From a virus: DNA of 64,000 nucleotides. The notes beneath the pieces were generated by a model that worked only from the letters and a program-made list of their open reading frames with translations, made no database searches and had not been told where the DNA came from. Shown here one piece after another: positions 48,951 through 63,583 of this stretch. Each line of letters begins with the position of its first letter. Position 1 is the stretch's first letter. The translations under genes and the position numbers were made by a program. The stretch covers positions 1 to 64,000 of the IMG/VR virus record IMGVR_UViG_3300035670_000137, one strand, 5' to 3'.

Positions 48951-49060
48951 TCTTGCTATAATATTATTTCTGAAGTGCGGAAGGCAATATGAATGAGATA
49001 CTTCGTTAGGCATTCCAAATTTCAGACTTGATTTTGTTAATCGAAGCCTGTATAATATTC

Positions 49061-50470
49061 ATATACACTGAGGAAAGCGAATAGCGCTTAACGACGGTTA
49101 AGCTACTCGGGCGCAAACGGCGGGTGACGCGTCCTGATATAATCAGACCTCCGCTACGGACAGTTAGCTGCTGACTCCCAAATTGGTCACTTAGTGTATA
49201 ACTTAGTAGTGTGGACTAGTGCGAAGCAGGTATGAAGTGAGGCTCAGGCGGAACGGAGTCTGTGAACCGGAGTGAAGCATACTAAGATAGCTTTATTAGG
49301 GAGCTTAATATCCTAGTACGGTGGTAGTAGTCGGAACTACTCCAACGCTTGAAGGTAAGTGCTTGCAGAACTGGTGTGACAATCGGTCAATATTCTGCAT
49401 AAACCTTCATTAGTTAGTACGATAAGCCTGTTGGGGTATTCAGAATATCCCGTTCAAAAGGTTCAAATCCTGGTTAAGCATGGCGTGCTGAACAGGGCAA
49501 GATAAACTAACTAATATAAACCTACTGATGATCTGAGGTGGTAACTCAGTGAAACGGCAGACAATCTAGCGAATAGTCGCGAACTACTCAATATAGTTCC
49601 CTACATAGCGGTCTGTCCGTATAGGTAAACCAAGAAGTGTGGATAACTGCCATGCCACTAGCGAGGAAGTCAACGCTCCTCAATATATGACAACGATAGT
49701 ACGTTGCATTGACCCAAGGGTTAGGGGCTATAGTTCAAAATGGCCTGTCTTACTTAACCCGATCCCTATCGGCATATGTTGCAGAATAATATAGAACCTT
49801 GGTAAAACGGGTTGTGCTATCCGGCCTATAGAAATAAGAGGATAGCATTGGTGAGTACTATAAGTTCGCAAATGTTCCTATAGTAAAGGACGATTGGAAA
49901 TCGACCACCTGGTCATAAGAGCCGAGACCTTATAAATAGGCAGTTTCCGTGGCTTGAAGCGGATTAGAGTGGGTATTGAGAGTACAGACACTATAAACAA
50001 GCAACTCTCTAGTGGTGCAACCCACTATTGAAAAACTAATAGTGCAACATTACGGAATTTAAGCACTTTAATCCTAGAAATTCCTAGGCCATGCCACAAG
50101 CCGAATATAACTGTAGATTGCTTGAGTCACCCGTACTCAGACACACACGGTAGGATACTGTCGACGTCCCGTAGAGAAGAGTTTTAAACTAGTAGTGTTT
50201 CTGCTTCTATCTGACTACGAAAAACGGTAAATCAGTTTCAGATAACGTGTAACTCCGTATGAAACGTCTATTAGATGCCTTTGTACTTTGAGCATTAATC
50301 AAATGTTGACTAGCCTGACGCTGGCTACGAGTCCCGTAAGGACAGTACGTAGTGATGGGATCCTGACCAAGTCACTAAAATCTTGTGGTAAGGGGCAAAG
50401 GCTGGATATTCGTATCCGGCCTTTGTTTTCTCTAGGTATTATTAGTTTAGTACCTAGAGAAAACAAAGGA
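49061..50470 (+). ncRNA. About 1.4 kb structured non-coding transcript(s)
   Basis: Own promoter, no plausible ORF, serial stem-closed domains. Confidence 0.7.
49520..49626 (+). ncRNA. Hammerhead-like ribozyme (type I)
   Basis: ACCTA-CTGATGA-stem II-GAAA-stem III-GTA-TAGGT. Confidence 0.65.
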
Positions 50471-53418: not shown

Positions 53419-53484
53419 TAAAAAATTTTGACTTGATTTATATTATCGAATAGCGTATAATATTACTTTAAGTCGCAGTTCTAT

Positions 53485-53706
53485 TAAATAAATCAACTGC
53501 TGCGTAGTGAGAATTTAGGATGAGGCCTATAACCCCTCTACTTTATTCGCCAGGGTTACTTCATATACTATGAGCCGATACTTCCTGCAATAGAAGGGGA
53601 AGAAAGGGGAAGAAAGTGACGAAGTCTCCACTACATATGTCCGTTAAGCTGCGTTCGTTATAGCGCGCAAAGAACCTTGCACGACATTTCTCAGTTGATT
53701 TATTTA
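53485..53706 (+). ncRNA. Y RNA-like ncRNA 1
   Basis: 15-bp terminal stem, GCTGCGT...GTTACTTCA...TTTCTC module upstream of Ro60. Confidence 0.65.
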
Positions 53707-53801
53707 GTATTGCTGCGTATATAACAGTTACTTCATCTCCAAATAATGATGGAAGGCGTGATGGCCTCCAGTCTCTGTTATAACCTTTTTCTCAATACTA
53801 A
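53704..53801 (+). ncRNA. Y RNA-like ncRNA 2
   Basis: TTAGTATTG/CAATACTAA stem, same module, ATAACAG/CTGTTAT inner stem. Confidence 0.7.
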
Positions 53802-53805
53802 TCTT

Positions 53806-53880
53806 TTTTCGCTGCGTCTTATACAGTTACTTCAATCTATGGTGATTACAACAATACTGTATATAACTTTTCCTCGAAAA
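53806..53880 (+). ncRNA. Y RNA-like ncRNA 3
   Basis: TTTTCG/CGAAAA stem, same module, TATACAG/CTGTATA inner stem. Confidence 0.7.
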
Positions 53881-53887
53881 TTCCAAA

Positions 53888-55441
53888 ATGACAAAACTAA
53901 ATCCAAAAACACAAAACACTATTGAACACGCTATCTCGGCCAATGGCAATCTTCAGATTGCTAAAGATCAGGGACAGACGTTCTTTGAGACCCTTGTCGG
54001 ACATATGTACGGCAAGGATCGTTTCTACACTAGCAATGAAGATGTTGCAAAGCGTTTGCTTTCCGATATCCAAGTCCTCGTTCGTAAGAATAAGTTGGAC
54101 TATATTGCTAATGTAATTCTGTATGCTCGTGAAAAGGTTTTCATGCGGTCGATGCCTATTCTAGCTACAGTTTACTTTGCTAAGGCATTGCGCGATTCCA
54201 AAGTATCCTTTCCACAACTTCGTAATCTAGTTTCTTCGGTCATTCAACGAGCTGACCAGGTAACTGATATGTACGCTGTTGCCTTAGAGGTCTTTGGAGA
54301 TAAGCGTAAAGTGCCCAATGCCATCAAGCGCGGTGTATCGGACGCCATGAATAAGTTTACCGTATATCACTACGGTAAATATAACCGTGAAGCCGGTGTC
54401 ACATTCAAAGATGTGGTGCGTATCGTACATCCAGAACCTCGCGATGACAACCAAAGTCAGACTTTCAAGATGATTCTTGAAAACAATCTGCCCGTGCCAT
54501 ATACGTGGGAAACTGAACTCTCCCGCAACGGTCAACTTCCGAAAGAAGTTCAAAAGACTAAGGCTCAGCTATGGGCCGAGCTCGTACAATCCGGCAAACT
54601 CGGATATATGGCATTACTTCGTAACCTTCGTAACATAGTTCAGTCAGGGGCTGACGTTATCGGTGAGGTGGCGAAACGGCTAGTCGATGCAGAACAAGTT
54701 CACATTTCTAAGCAGCTTCCCTTCTCCTACCTAAAGGCTCTAGACGCCGTTAAGGACGCCCCCGCAAAGCTGAAGTGGGCAGTAAGTGAGGCTCTTGATG
54801 TATCCTGTGCTAACGTACCTGCACTAGGAAAGAAAGTGTGGATCATTGTCGATGGTTCCGGCTCTATGTTGGGTTCCCATTATGGACGCATGGGACGCAA
54901 TGAGGCGCTAGGTGAGTGTCCTTTCCAGACCGCGGCTGTATTTTGTGCAGCCCTGGCTAAATCAAATCGTGATGCTAGTGAACTAGCAGTTACCATCTTT
55001 AGCGACAACGCTCAGATGGTTGATCTGAACCCTCGTGATTCAGTATCCACAATGGTGGAGAACCTCACGAAGAAAGTTCAAGGTGGTGGAACTAATCTAC
55101 AGGCAGCCTTGAATATGAAGTCACGGTTAGGTTTTGAGCCAGACACAGTTGTAATCCTCTCAGATATGGAAGTTAACCAACTGTCAACTGGATCGTATGG
55201 TGGAGGCTATTCTTGGAATAGACAAGACAATACGATTGCAAACATCAGCAAGATGTTTGACAAGAACTGCTATAAAGTAGCAGTAAACCTAGCTAGCGGC
55301 GTTTCAACGCCGGTTCCAAAAGAGCATGGCTTTGTCCAACTAGCAGGGTTTAGCGAGCGAATCTTCGCCCTAATCCCAGAATTGCGAAATAGTCGGACTA
55401 CGGTTGAAACACTGTTCAGTCGACCATTTGCAGCAGTTTAA
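53888..55441 (+). CDS. rsr: Ro60 / Rsr RNA-binding protein (TROVE + vWA)
   Basis: VIQRADQ, KYNR, PYTWETELS, LGYMALLRNLRN, QLPF; vWA DGSGSM, GGTN, LSD. Confidence 0.93.
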   Translation: MTKLNPKTQNTIEHAISANGNLQIAKDQGQTFFETLVGHMYGKDRFYTSNEDVAKRLLSDIQVLVRKNKLDYIANVILYAREKVFMRSMPILATVYFAKALRDSKVSFPQLRNLVSSVIQRADQVTDMYAVALEVFGDKRKVPNAIKRGVSDAMNKFTVYHYGKYNREAGVTFKDVVRIVHPEPRDDNQSQTFKMILENNLPVPYTWETELSRNGQLPKEVQKTKAQLWAELVQSGKLGYMALLRNLRNIVQSGADVIGEVAKRLVDAEQVHISKQLPFSYLKALDAVKDAPAKLKWAVSEALDVSCANVPALGKKVWIIVDGSGSMLGSHYGRMGRNEALGECPFQTAAVFCAALAKSNRDASELAVTIFSDNAQMVDLNPRDSVSTMVENLTKKVQGGGTNLQAALNMKSRLGFEPDTVVILSDMEVNQLSTGSYGGGYSWNRQDNTIANISKMFDKNCYKVAVNLASGVSTPVPKEHGFVQLAGFSERIFALIPELRNSRTTVETLFSRPFAAV

Positions 55442-55538
55442 GATAAGGGCGCGTTAGCAATAACGTGCCCTTTTTCTTTCTTGATTTCATTCCTTATAAA
55501 GCGTATAATATCTTTATTGAGTGACATTTGGAAAGAAA

Positions 55539-61508: not shown

Positions 61509-61639
61509 TATGGGAACGACTACACTACATAACCGAAAAGAAGCTGAAGTGTCCGGAACTTGCAGTGGAAGGCGTAGGAAGATAGGGTCGGCGTTGGTTC
61601 AATCCCATTCCCATACTTTGGCCTACCATATTCGTTGAT

Positions 61640-61937
61640 GGCAAAGTAAAAGTATTCAAGACGGGAGGGGCAGTGCCTCCCCTGGTCCACCAATAAGTAG
61701 CTATAAGAGTGACACAGTAGGGTATTAGCAGACGTCCTAGTACCTCTGGAGTAATCATAAACTTAGCTACTTATTAATGGGCCAGTAATAGATTCGATTG
61801 GGTATGAATAGCAATGCTGGAGAATCGTCAAGAAAGACGTAAAAATCACAATAATAAATGCAAACGATTCTACGTTCGCTCTAGCCGCTTGAGCTAGATA
61901 AGGTTTCGGGACTGTCCCTTATTACCAATACAGTCCC
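61640..61937 (+). ncRNA. ssrA: Circularly permuted (two-piece) tmRNA; tag ANDSTFALAA
   Basis: Acceptor piece ends CTGGTCCACCA (61692) upstream of the GGGCCAG start (61779); G3:U70; tag 61860-61892; 5' limit approximate. Confidence 0.88.
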
Positions 61938-62682: not shown

Positions 62683-62789
62683 TATACGCTGCACTTATAA
62701 GAGATACTTCATAAGTTCGACTCTTATATCCGGGGCCACTATCCCGGATACGCCGTTGGTGGCATACTCTTATTACCTTTTCTCGTATA
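62683..62789 (+). ncRNA. yrlA: YrlA-type Y RNA (permuted tRNA-like domain)
   Basis: Same module as RNAs upstream of Ro60, enclosing T arm, closed acceptor hairpin and D arm in that order. Confidence 0.8.
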
Positions 62790-62799
62790 TACCAAAATT

Positions 62800-63138
62800 A
62801 TGAAACTATATATCGCCGTATTAGATGAAGTACCAGACCATATGGTTCCTACACTAGTAGCTCACACTGTATTAGGTGCAAATGAAGCCTTTAGATTTTA
62901 TCCTGCGTATCAGGAATGGTTAAATACGTCTTTTAAGAAAGTAGTACTAAGAGTTAATCGTAAAGAGTTTCAAAAGATAACGGAACTTGGTGGAGATAAA
63001 GTATATTTAGGGTATGAAAATACTACTCTAAATGCTATATACTCTTGTGCTATAGTACTACCAGGTACTCAGGCCAACGTACTTAAATTTGCCAAAATGT
63101 GGAAACCTAAGTATGAAGACAATTTTCCTAGATATTGA
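62800..63138 (+). CDS. Peptidyl-tRNA hydrolase (Pth2-like)
   Basis: KLYIAV...VAH...W....FKKVVLRV. Confidence 0.65.
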   Translation: MKLYIAVLDEVPDHMVPTLVAHTVLGANEAFRFYPAYQEWLNTSFKKVVLRVNRKEFQKITELGGDKVYLGYENTTLNAIYSCAIVLPGTQANVLKFAKMWKPKYEDNFPRY

Positions 63139-63583
63139 CGGCGTACTAAACAATACAGCTACTTACATATATAATAGACAACAAAGCCCTAGTAAAAAGT
63201 ATATAGGGTACAGCCATAGACATATGGATGAAGTAGACCCTAGGTTGCTAGGGTTAGTGCGATACATAGTAGATGAAACAGGCGCTAAGATAGTAATATC
63301 TTCTAGTTGGAGAATAATCCATACGCAGAATGAAATTGCACAAGTGTTTGCATATAATGGGTGGCTAGACGCTCCTATTATAGATATGACTCCTAAGTCT
63401 ATGGACGCTTTTAGAGGAAATGAGATAAAGGCTTGGTTAGATAGCGATGAGTACACTACTAAATACGCTATTTTAGATGACGGAACAGACTTTTATGAGC
63501 ATCAGCCCCTATTCCGTACAGATGCTACAGTAGGACTTACTTTTATAATAGCTCAGAAAGTAATAGAATTTCTCAATAATTAA
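63113..63583 (+). CDS. HAD phosphatase (RNA-repair 'Swiss army knife' type)
   Basis: FLDIDGVLN, IVISSSWR, RG.EI..WL, ILDD. Confidence 0.85.
   Translation: MKTIFLDIDGVLNNTATYIYNRQQSPSKKYIGYSHRHMDEVDPRLLGLVRYIVDETGAKIVISSSWRIIHTQNEIAQVFAYNGWLDAPIIDMTPKSMDAFRGNEIKAWLDSDEYTTKYAILDDGTDFYEHQPLFRTDATVGLTFIIAQKVIEFLNN

What the first reader, a model, noticed from the sequence alone, without database searches (positions are those of the whole stretch)
53433..55441. Ro60 operon led by three Y-like RNAs with one docking module and different payloads
Seen: promoter, then three tandem units directly before the Ro60 ATG, each with terminal stem-GCTGCGT-...GTTACTTCA-[variable domain]-...TTTYCTC-stem; units 2 and 3 also show a clear 7-bp inner stem. 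Units are about 220, 98 and 75 nt. The same module encloses a tRNA-like domain at 62683, identifying the family as Y RNAs. Known: Y RNAs tether Ro60 to effectors such as PNPase, and some phages carry Ro60/YrlA. New: four RNAs with swappable effector domains, i.e. an RNA-programmable Ro60 adaptor set within a tRNA-repair/ribosome-rescue island. Unit 3 ends 7 nt before an SD-less ATG, suggesting autoregulation.
Basis: partly seen in the sequence, partly recalled or inferred. Interest (0 to 1): 0.86.

Follow-up and report, generated by a model that had tools for sequence, protein, structure and literature searches.

The report
Phage Ro60 gene with Y-RNA array
An uncultured phage carries, between one promoter and its Ro60 (RNA-surveillance ring protein) gene, three back-to-back small RNA genes, plus a fourth 7 kb away, that share one conserved stem-loop-stem "handle" and are divergent relatives of the bacterial Y RNAs that partner Ro60: a real but expected kind of system.

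Summary
Between a TTGATT-17-TATAAT promoter (53433-53461) and the ATG of a full-length TROVE+vWA Ro60 gene (53888-55441) lie three tandem units. A fourth sits at 62683-62790. All share: closing stem, G-YUGCGUAG loop, 7-8 bp inner stem, UUACUUC, variable domain, return strands, YUUUYCUC.

A covariance model built from these units finds the module beside Ro60 genes in about 110 of 165 viral and metagenomic loci. Of 305 hits, 304 lie on the Ro60 strand. Bacterial chromosomal loci gave 61 of 61 on that strand. A control of 866 kb of unrelated viral DNA gave none. Both helices covary strongly (95% paired against 57% shuffled).

Units with a T arm, closed acceptor stem and D arm overlap full-length but sub-threshold Rfam YrlA matches. 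The module is therefore a variant of the published YrlA/YrlB Ro60-binding region.

These are Y RNAs of a divergent subfamily. Arrays of two to six units are common, and close relatives swap the middle cassettes. Ro60 binding, processing, effector tethering and autoregulation remain untested: no RNA data exist.

The SD-less start 7 nt after unit 3 is real and recurs after unit 4. This scan has already noted similar "handle" RNA arrays beside Ro60-like genes in other phages.

The parts
53433..53461 (+). sigma-70-type promoter-like site, TTGATT-17 nt-TATAAT
   Evidence: 10 of 12 matches. The same hexamers and spacing recur at 55481-55509 before the next gene. The relatives L002 and L200 lack this promoter: there the array follows tRNA-Trp directly.
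53482..53709 (+). Unit 1 (U1), a large Y-like RNA. It has a 10-18 bp closing stem, CUGCGUAG, a 5' insert hairpin, an inner stem CAGGGU/ACCUUG, UUACUUCA, a roughly 110-nt multi-hairpin domain, and CACGACAUUUCUC.
   Evidence: Orthologues in L002, L200 and L295 keep the closing stem with a compensatory C-G to U-A change, and keep the inner stem and hairpins with covariation. No Rfam match.
53704..53801 (+). Unit 2 (U2). It has a 9-bp closing stem, CUGCGUA, an 8-bp inner stem, UUACUUCA, a two-hairpin domain, and ACCUUUUUCUC.
   Evidence: R2 67.1 bits, E 2e-14. The orthologue in L200 shows four compensatory double changes in the 8-bp inner stem. Fold z = -2.4.
53806..53880 (+). Unit 3 (U3), a minimal Y-like RNA. 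It has a 6-bp closing stem, CUGCGUCU, a 7-bp inner stem, UUACUUCA, and a short hairpin.
   Evidence: R2 64.9 bits. Fold z = -3.3. Orthologues sit last in the array in L002, L200 and L295. Units of the same 70-80-nt size are present in many loci of the 39-47% Ro60 clade.
53881..53887 (+). 7-nt A/U-rich spacer (UUCCAAA) with no Shine-Dalgarno sequence before the Ro60 ATG
   Evidence: L002, L200 and L295 are also SD-less. Most other + strand genes of the phage have GGAG, GAGG or AGGA.
53888..55441 (+). Ro60 orthologue (517 aa): TROVE plus vWA with a MIDAS motif (DGSGS)
   Evidence: Pfam TROVE 1.8e-21 and VWA_2 3e-9. PHROG 850 RNA-binding protein, 5e-46. Matches PDB Thermus phage phiLo Ro60 (9KOP/9L5Y) at E 7e-16. 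D322, S324, S326, T402 and D426 are invariant in the family alignment.
55445..55480 (+). intrinsic-terminator-like hairpin with a T tract, ending the operon
   Evidence: 12 pairs, 6 of them G-C, followed by TTTCTTTCTT.
62683..62790 (+). Unit 4 (U4). Same module (CUGCAC, inner stem UAUAAGAG/CUCUUAU, AUACUUCA, CCUUUUCUC) around a degenerate permuted tRNA-like domain: a T-like hairpin UAAG-UUCGACU-CUUA, an 8-bp closed stem, and a D-like hairpin GCC-GUUGGU-GGC.
   Evidence: R2 49.5 bits, E 1e-9. Fold z = -3.0. The orthologue at G001:108908-109018 shows compensatory changes. No Rfam YrlA match even at E<=10.
62800..63583 (+). Genes directly downstream of U4. ORF 62800-63138 (112 aa, PHROG 5822, function unknown) has an SD-less ATG 9 nt after U4. 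It is followed by a HAD_SAK_2 (RNA-repair-type HAD) gene, 63089/63113-63583.
   Evidence: In the relative G001 the U4 orthologue abuts the HAD gene directly, again without an SD.

Best explanation
This is a Y-RNA gene array co-transcribed with a phage Ro60 gene.

One promoter drives a precursor that carries U1, U2, U3 and the Ro60 mRNA. The precursor is cut into discrete small RNAs. Each RNA presents the same lower module: closing stem, asymmetric internal loop G-YUGCGUAG / CGAYUUUWYCUC, inner stem, then UUACUUC. This is the variant, in this lineage, of the YrlA/YrlB Ro60-binding region, and phage Ro60 docks on it. The differing apical domains give each ribonucleoprotein a different partner, substrate or stability. 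Those domains are a large multi-hairpin domain (U1), two hairpins (U2), a minimal hairpin (U3) and a degenerate tRNA mimic (U4). The likely purpose is to redirect host RNA decay or repair enzymes during infection, as Y RNA tethers Ro60 to PNPase in Deinococcus and in Thermus phage phiLo.

Shown here: the RNA structure (by covariation), the exclusive linkage to Ro60, and homology with YrlA.
Inferred: Ro60 binding, processing, and partner recruitment.
For: - The protein is Ro60.
- All four units carry the module.
- Covariation is strong: 95.1% of cells paired against 57.3% in shuffles and 39-54% in slid registers. There are 699 double-change cells against 205 in shuffles, over 131 units from 66 loci. 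The result is the same on the first 26 units.
- Linkage to Ro60: 304 of 305 R2 hits (E<=1) around viral and metagenomic Ro60 genes are on the Ro60 strand, just upstream or downstream. In bacterial genome loci, 61 of 61 are.
- Control: 0 hits in 866 kb of other viral DNA.
- In whole phage records of 77-230 kb the module occurs only near Ro60.
- Homology: tRNA-like units hit by R2 coincide with full-length but sub-threshold Rfam YrlA matches, for example L205 484-607 at 47.9 bits and L200 5024-5133.
- Bacterial versions read G-UGNCGUAG, one letter from the published GNCGAAN0-1G, and UUAC fits the published YUAY (PMC4201824).
- Precedents: M. smegmatis YrlA+YrlB upstream of rsr from one precursor (PMC4201824). 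phiLo Ro60 binds two upstream Yrl RNAs and PNPase (PMC12135203).
Against: - There is no expression, end-mapping or binding data. No RNA run holds the sequence.
- Rfam YrlA does not match any unit of the window, even at E<=10.
- U1-U3 have no tRNA-like domain.
- The strict GNCGAA motif is absent from the window.
- U4 lies 7.2 kb from Ro60, outside the 4-kb rule used by Chen et al.
- Nothing identifies the partners of the apical domains.
- The R2-based alignments are fitted to the model, which inflates pairing somewhat.
Confidence: 0.8

Rival explanations
1. The units act mainly in cis, as a structured leader. Ro60 binds the repeated modules on its own mRNA, above all U3, which ends 7 nt before an SD-less ATG. 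Binding blocks or gates translation. Alternatively, cleavage at U3's 3' end creates a near-leaderless mRNA. On this reading the array is an autoregulatory or titrating leader rather than a set of trans-acting RNPs.
For: - The Ro60 start is SD-less and 7-9 nt after U3 in the window, L002, L200 and L295. Most other genes of the phage have an SD.
- The same junction occurs after U4 (ORF 62800). It also occurs after the U4 orthologue in G001 (HAD_SAK_2 gene) and in the unrelated locus L262.
Against: - In most loci the last unit ends 17-95 nt before Ro60, and a normal SD is present.
- Many arrays lie downstream of Ro60 or kilobases away.
- Relatives of these RNAs are stable trans-acting RNAs bound by Rsr (PMC4201824).
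- This reading is compatible with, rather than exclusive of, the main reading.
Confidence: 0.3
2. The units are tRNA-derived decoys or processing substrates that work without Ro60. They might be baits for host anticodon nucleases or tRNA-modifying and processing enzymes. On this reading they sit next to Ro60 only because both belong to the phage's tRNA/tmRNA region.
For: - U4 and many related units hold T and D arms.
- One unit in L002 is called tRNA-Arg(tct) by ARAGORN and scores 42 bits as tRNA in Rfam.
- The locus lies among 22 tRNA genes and a permuted tmRNA.
- Published YrlA RNAs are substrates of tRNA enzymes (PMC4201824).
Against: - The invariant part is the module, not the tRNA-like part. 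U1-U3 and about half of the 131 units have no tRNA-like domain.
- The module is absent from the rest of the tRNA regions and from whole phage genomes except next to Ro60.
- It also flanks chromosomal Ro60 genes away from tRNA clusters.
Confidence: 0.08
3. The repeats act at the DNA level, as protein-binding sites, recombination sites or miniature mobile elements, and are not functional RNAs.
For: They are tandem repeated motifs in an intergenic leader, and cassette content differs between close relatives.
Against: - Compensatory changes, including G-U pairs, preserve two helices in 131 units while the primary sequence of the stems varies freely.
- Strand bias relative to Ro60 is strict.
- The units lie inside a promoter-to-terminator unit.
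Confidence: 0.02

Closest known systems
Bacterial and phage YrlA/YrlB Y RNAs with Rsr (Ro60): Salmonella rsr-yrlBA-rtcBA, M. smegmatis, mycobacteriophages, CcrColossus (Chen et al. 2014, PMC4201824; Rfam RF02553)
   Same: - Encoded beside Ro60 and on its strand.
- 5' and 3' ends pair.
- A conserved 5' motif in the lower stem or loop region is followed by YUAY.
- Some RNAs enclose a permuted tRNA-like domain (T arm, closed acceptor stem, D arm), while others (YrlB) do not.
- Two RNAs upstream of rsr come from one precursor in M. smegmatis.
- R2 hits coincide with sub-threshold YrlA matches, and R2 also hits CcrColossus.
   Different: - The motif reads G-YUGCGUAG instead of GNCGAAN0-1G, and the almost invariant UUACUUC replaces AUGCUU/CUAC.
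- No window unit reaches Rfam YrlA at any score.
- There are three tandem units plus a distant one.
- U1 carries a large conserved non-tRNA domain.
- The window's only tRNA-like unit (U4) is degenerate.
Thermus phage phiLo Ro60 with Yrl1 and Yrl2 (PMC12135203; PDB 9KOP, 9L5Y)
   Same: - A phage Ro60 preceded by tandem Y-like RNAs with a stem, internal bulge and stem.
- Ro60 binding and ternary complexes with host PNPase were shown in vitro.
- It is the only solved structure matched by this Ro60.
   Different: - phiLo has two units defined by a CGAA motif.
- R2 finds no match in the phiLo locus.
- Protein identity is about 25%.
Deinococcus radiodurans Rsr-Yrn1-PNPase (RYPER) and Yrn2
   Same: It is the model for how this system would work: a Y RNA tethers Ro60 to an exoribonuclease through its apical domain, and one species has more than one Y RNA.
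   Different: - Yrn1 has a different tRNA-like topology.
- No partner is known for the present RNAs.
- There is no evidence that PNPase is the target.
Listeria phage CKA15 (P100-like): three highly abundant RNAs within 2 kb upstream of an Rsr-like gene (PMC12282133)
   Same: Three strongly transcribed small-RNA regions lie upstream of, and co-oriented with, a phage Ro60-like gene. The authors proposed them as Y RNAs.
   Different: Neither sequence nor structure was compared here. Those RNAs are expression-defined, whereas the present ones are defined by sequence and covariation.
Metazoan Y RNAs (for example four in humans)
   Same: Several paralogous RNAs share a conserved Ro60-binding lower stem and differ in the upper loop, which binds other proteins.
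   Different: They are Pol III genes with La-binding U tails and no tRNA-like domain. No sequence relation was tested here.

Membership tests
Ro60/Rsr (TROVE) protein | TROVE (HEAT-repeat ring) domain followed by a vWA domain with a MIDAS motif | tested here: met
   Pfam TROVE 1.8e-21 and VWA_2 3e-9. DGSGS, T402 and D426 are invariant. The PDB phiLo Ro60 matches at E 7e-16 over residues 38-433.
YrlA-type Y RNA (Rfam RF02553; Chen 2014) | Encoded within 4 kb of a Ro60 gene, on the same strand | tested here: met
   U1-U3 lie 7-400 nt upstream on the same strand. U4 is on the same strand but 7.2 kb downstream, so it fails the 4-kb rule.
YrlA-type Y RNA (Rfam RF02553; Chen 2014) | Score at or above the Rfam gathering threshold (69 bits) | tested here: not met
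   No YrlA match in the window or the whole record, even at E<=10. Related units elsewhere score 30-48 bits over the full model length.
YrlA-type Y RNA (Rfam RF02553; Chen 2014) | GNCGAAN0-1G motif near the 5' end | tested here: not met
   - The window units read CUGCGUAG (U1), CUGCGUAU (U2), CUGCGUCU (U3) and CUGCAC (U4).
- The family consensus is G-yuGcGuAg.
- L124 units read CUGCGAAG.
- Bacterial relatives read G-UGNCGUAG, one letter from the published motif.
- This is a variant of the motif, not the motif itself.
YrlA-type Y RNA (Rfam RF02553; Chen 2014) | Permuted tRNA-like domain: T arm, closed acceptor-like stem-loop, D arm, preceded by YUAY | tested here: inconclusive
   - U4 has all three hairpins in the right order, but in degenerate form.
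- U1-U3 lack them, which makes them YrlB-like.
- UUAC fits YUAY in all units.
- Canonical T and D arms are present in related units of L200, L205, L130, L124 and G001.
Y RNA in the functional sense | Bound by Ro60 in vivo or in vitro | not testable with these tools
   Only the genomic linkage bears on this: 304 of 305 and 61 of 61 hits on the Ro60 strand next to Ro60, and 0 in the control DNA.
Y RNA in the functional sense | Exists as a discrete, stable small RNA | not testable with these tools
   No RNA sequencing run holds the stretch. The structure is supported by covariation.

The most novel reading that the evidence does not exclude
The phage uses a cassette-like library of Y RNAs: a constant Ro60 handle with exchangeable heads. 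It has four in this phage and six in its complete 112-kb relative. These programme one Ro60 ring towards several different host or phage RNAs or enzymes. The same handle also works in cis. Where the last unit abuts an SD-less start codon (Ro60 itself, ORF 62800, or the HAD_SAK_2 RNA-repair gene in the relative), Ro60 binding or handle-directed cleavage sets translation of that gene. This would couple Ro60 dosage and RNA-repair functions to free Y-RNA occupancy.
Probability: 0.25. Interest if true: 0.7.

Novelty: new variant of a known kind. Interest (0 to 1): 0.5.

Why it matters
Phage Ro60 systems are barely studied: there is one structural paper, on Thermus phage phiLo. How Y RNAs specify Ro60's partners is an open question.

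This locus, and the covariance model derived from it, define a divergent Y-RNA subfamily that Rfam's YrlA model misses. The model shows the following:
- The handle is conserved from uncultured phages to Flavobacterium, Clostridium and Caulobacter phage CcrColossus.
- Arrays of two to six handle-sharing RNAs are common.
- Close relatives exchange the middle cassettes while keeping the first and last.

This gives a compact, testable set. It comprises one 517-aa protein, a 75-nt minimal RNA (U3) and three RNAs with other heads. With it one can ask what the handle contacts on Ro60 and what the heads recruit. The recurrent "handle, then SD-less ATG" junction is a concrete hypothesis for cis-regulation by Ro60.

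The finding does not reveal a new kind of system.

Tried and rejected
- Rfam at gathering threshold and at E<=10 gave no Y RNA or YrlA match in the window. RF02553 run on the whole record also gave none.
- blastn of the locus against 50,697 phage records found no match. By protein, all cultured phages are under 32% identical.
- An exact-pattern scan of viral contigs with TGCGT-N(2-30)-GTTACTTCA was too unspecific: 118+ single chance matches. None of 100 such loci holds the module by R2. I reused them as a negative control.
- No RNA holder was listed for the stretch. I did not use read laying, because DNA contigs cannot show RNA ends.
- MAFFT alignments of the units misplace the 3' motif by 1-2 columns. 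I therefore seeded the model from the two U2 orthologues only and rebuilt it from model-fitted hits.
- The GACGAAG inside U1 looked like the published CGAA motif, but it is not kept in L200 or L295. Rejected.
- The second GCTGCGT inside U1 (53648) is part of a hairpin and not a further unit.
- cmscan's alignment of YrlA stem 1 onto the inner stem leaves YrlA stem 2 unpaired. I judged it an artefact. Aligning CGUAG with CGAA, and UUAC with YUAY, fits better.
- I could not fetch Salmonella or M. smegmatis rsr loci to run R2 on experimentally proven YrlA/YrlB.
- The review PMC10870794 is not held.
- Pfam on 22 neighbouring ORFs found no RNA ligase, kinase or RtcB. It found only HAD_SAK_2, PD-(D/E)XK, HNH, Hsp20, Pyr_excise and similar.
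Full report
**What is there.** The window is the first 64 kb of a 76,781-nt IMG/VR virus record, estimated 73% complete. ORF 53888-55441 (+) encodes a 517-aa protein:
- It has a TROVE domain (E 1.8e-21) and a vWA domain (E 3e-9).
- It belongs to PHROG 850, "RNA-binding protein".
- Its only match among solved structures is the Ro60 of Thermus phage phiLo (E 7e-16).
- Its MIDAS residues (DGSGS, T402, D426) are invariant among relatives.

It is a bona fide Ro60 orthologue. A promoter-like site, TTGATT-17-TATAAT, lies at 53433-53461. A terminator-like hairpin with a T tract lies at 55445-55472.

**The four units.**
- U1: closing stem 53490-53499/53692-53701, extendable to 18 bp.
- U2: 53704-53801.
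- U3: 53806-53880.
- U4, of the same build: 62683-62790, directly after a tRNA.

GTTACTTCA occurs three times on the + strand of the whole record, all in this leader. U2, U3 and U4 fold better than shuffled controls (z = -2.4, -3.3, -3.0). U1 does not (z = -0.96).

**Relatives.** Cultured phages hold only distant Ro60 homologues, under 32% identity, and the DNA has no match among 50,697 phage records. Uncultured relatives carry the same leader:

| Locus | Ro60 identity | Source |
|---|---|---|
| L002 | 76% | complete 112-kb virus contig |
| L200 | 75% | metagenome contig |
| L295 | 76% | Lake Erken MAG contig |

The arrays read:
- Window: U1-U2-U3
- L200: U1-U2-Uc-U3
- L002: U1-Ub-Uc-U3
- L295: U1-U3'-Uc-U3

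The first and last cassettes are kept and the middle ones are exchanged.
- Ub in L002 encloses a body that ARAGORN calls tRNA-Arg(tct) and Rfam scores as tRNA at 42 bits.
- Between orthologues, the stems change by compensatory substitutions: four double changes in the 8-bp inner stem of U2, and C-G to U-A in the U1 closing stem.

**A covariance model and its reach.** I seeded model R1 from the two U2 orthologues. It found 26 units in 12 loci, and I rebuilt it from those as R2. Results with R2:
- Over 165 viral and metagenomic Ro60 loci (1.1 Mb), R2 gives 305 matches at E<=1, of which 304 lie on the Ro60 strand.
- The matches lie just upstream or just downstream of the gene. About 110 loci have a hit at E<0.01.
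- Over 80 loci from bacterial genomes (Flavobacterium, Sporocytophaga, Chitinophaga, Clostridium and others), 61 of 61 matches at E<=0.01 are on the Ro60 strand.
- In 866 kb of unrelated viral DNA, even though it was preselected for part of the motif, there is no match at E<=1.
- In whole phage records the module occurs only around Ro60. There are 3 model hits (plus U1) in this record, 6 within 9 kb in the 112-kb relative, 3 in a 198-kb record and 4 in a 230-kb record.
- W_U1 is found only with filters off (15.8 bits, E 9e-4), because 170 nt are inserted. Its L002 orthologue scores 48.6 bits.
- Arrays of 2-6 units are common, for example six in L141/L250 and L139, and five in L144.

**Structure.** On 131 units from 66 loci, the two helices form standard pairs in 95.1% of cells. 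Shuffles give 57.3% and slid registers give 39-54%. There are 699 double-change cells against 205 in shuffles, and all 14 pairs show compensatory change. The first 26 units give the same picture. The alignment is model-fitted, which inflates pairing somewhat, but the margin is large.

The consensus, in 5'-to-3' order, is:
- a closing stem whose last pair is an invariant G-C;
- the loop yuGcGuAg;
- an 8-bp inner stem whose last pair is G-C;
- UACUUC, 99-100% invariant;
- the variable domain;
- the return strand of the inner stem;
- cG..U.U..CUC;
- the return strand of the closing stem.

Variable domains fall into two main size classes. One is 9-40 nt (a hairpin, like U3). The other is 65-93 nt (a T arm, a closed acceptor-like stem and a D arm with canonical loops). 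A few are longer.

**Relation to known Y RNAs.**
- Rfam's YrlA (RF02553, gathering score 69) matches nothing in this record.
- It does give full-length but sub-threshold matches that coincide with R2 hits on tRNA-like units. Examples are L205 484-607 (47.9 bits), L255, L218, L224 and L200 5024-5133 (30.8 bits). There are also three matches upstream of the TROVE gene of Caulobacter phage CcrColossus, where R2 finds a fourth unit.
- The architecture of the Rfam consensus is the same as here: stem 1, internal loop, stem 2, YUAY, the tRNA-like three-hairpin domain, then the return strands.
- In bacterial relatives the 5' loop reads G-UGNCGUAG, one letter from the published GNCGAAN0-1G. L124 units read CGAAG. 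UUAC fits the published YUAY (PMC4201824).

The "docking module" is thus a lineage variant of the region that Chen et al. proposed as the Rsr recognition site. It is not a new element. Relevant precedents:
- Chen et al. reported 355 YrlA-like sequences in 254 bacteria and 22 phages.
- M. smegmatis YrlA and YrlB lie upstream of rsr and come from one precursor (PMC4201824).
- phiLo Ro60 binds two upstream Yrl RNAs and forms complexes with host PNPase (PMC12135203).
- Listeria phage CKA15 has three abundant RNAs upstream of an Rsr-like gene (PMC12282133).
- Jumbo-phage surveys mention TROVE proteins with a tRNA-like partner (PMC7824862).
- Other agents of this scan have repeatedly reported arrays of handle-sharing RNAs beside Ro60-like genes in other phages.

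**How it most likely works.** One transcript from the 53433 promoter carries U1-U3 and the Ro60 mRNA. In the relatives, the transcript reads through from the upstream tRNA array. The units are excised and bound by Ro60 through the handle. The heads differ and presumably select partners or substrates. All of this is inference by homology.

U1's extended closing stem overlaps U2's 5' strand, so the two cannot both form in the precursor.

**The start-codon junction.**
- The Ro60 ATG follows U3 by 7 nt (UUCCAAA) without an SD, although most + strand genes of the phage have GGAG, GAGG or AGGA.
- L002, L200 and L295 are the same.
- U4 is followed after 9 nt by the SD-less ATG of ORF 62800.
- In the 112-kb relative, the U4 orthologue abuts the HAD_SAK_2 gene without an SD.
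- An unrelated locus, L262, has the same junction.
- In most other loci the spacer is 17-95 nt and holds an SD.

An A/U-rich leader read without an SD, or a near-leaderless mRNA after cleavage, would explain the data equally well.

**Context.** The region holds 22 tRNA genes and a permuted tmRNA (98 bits). It also holds a HAD_SAK_2 gene (E 5e-27), PD-(D/E)XK and HNH nucleases, a pyrimidine-dimer glycosylase-like gene and an Hsp20 gene. I found no RNA ligase, kinase or RtcB among the ORFs scanned. "RNA-repair island" is only partly supported.

**Verdict.** It is a divergent, Rfam-invisible variant of a known system. Its modest new features are array size, cassette turnover, a large non-tRNA head and the SD-less junctions. 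Function remains inferred.

Noticed in passing
window 49030-50450: A TTGATT-17-TATAAT-type promoter is followed by about 1.4 kb without a credible ORF and with no Rfam match at gathering threshold. It may be a large structured RNA or a run of small RNAs. R2 does not hit it.
   Followed up: no
L002 2710-2818 (IMGVR_UViG_3300035670_000065): One Y-module in the 76% relative encloses a non-permuted tRNA-like body. ARAGORN calls it tRNA-Arg(tct) and Rfam scores it as tRNA at 42 bits. The module's inner stem serves as the acceptor stem, so the handle can flank an ordinary-topology tRNA as well as permuted mimics.
   Followed up: partly
window 62790-63583; G001:C1:108908-109060: U4 is followed after 9 nt by an SD-less ORF (112 aa, PHROG 5822, function unknown) and then by a HAD_SAK_2 (RNA-repair-type HAD) gene. 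In the complete relative the 112-aa ORF is absent, and the U4 orthologue abuts the HAD gene directly, again without an SD.
   Followed up: partly
L281 2845-3793 (Caulobacter phage CcrColossus, JX100810.1 upstream of gp139): Three sub-threshold Rfam YrlA matches and one R2 match lie in a row upstream of the TROVE gene. None is annotated as a Y RNA. A tRNA-Gln annotation (L281 3008-3075) overlaps one of the YrlA matches.
   Followed up: no
L328, L333, L340, L349, L364, L365 (Flavobacterium), L352/L355 (Sporocytophaga), L319/L370 (Clostridium): The same handle flanks chromosomal Ro60 genes, with 2-3 units per locus: downstream in Bacteroidota and upstream in Clostridium. In these bacteria the 5' loop reads G-UGNCGUAG (Bacteroidota) or GCAGUGWAG (Clostridium).
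   Followed up: partly
window 61630-61892: A permuted (two-piece) tmRNA gene scores 98 bits in Rfam RF04321. It lies within the tRNA-rich region and hints at an alphaproteobacterial, betaproteobacterial or cyanobacterial type of host.
   Followed up: no
window 53482-53712: The 18-bp extended form of U1's closing stem uses 53703-53709. These bases are also the 5' strand of U2's closing stem, so the two pairings exclude each other in an unprocessed precursor.
   Followed up: no
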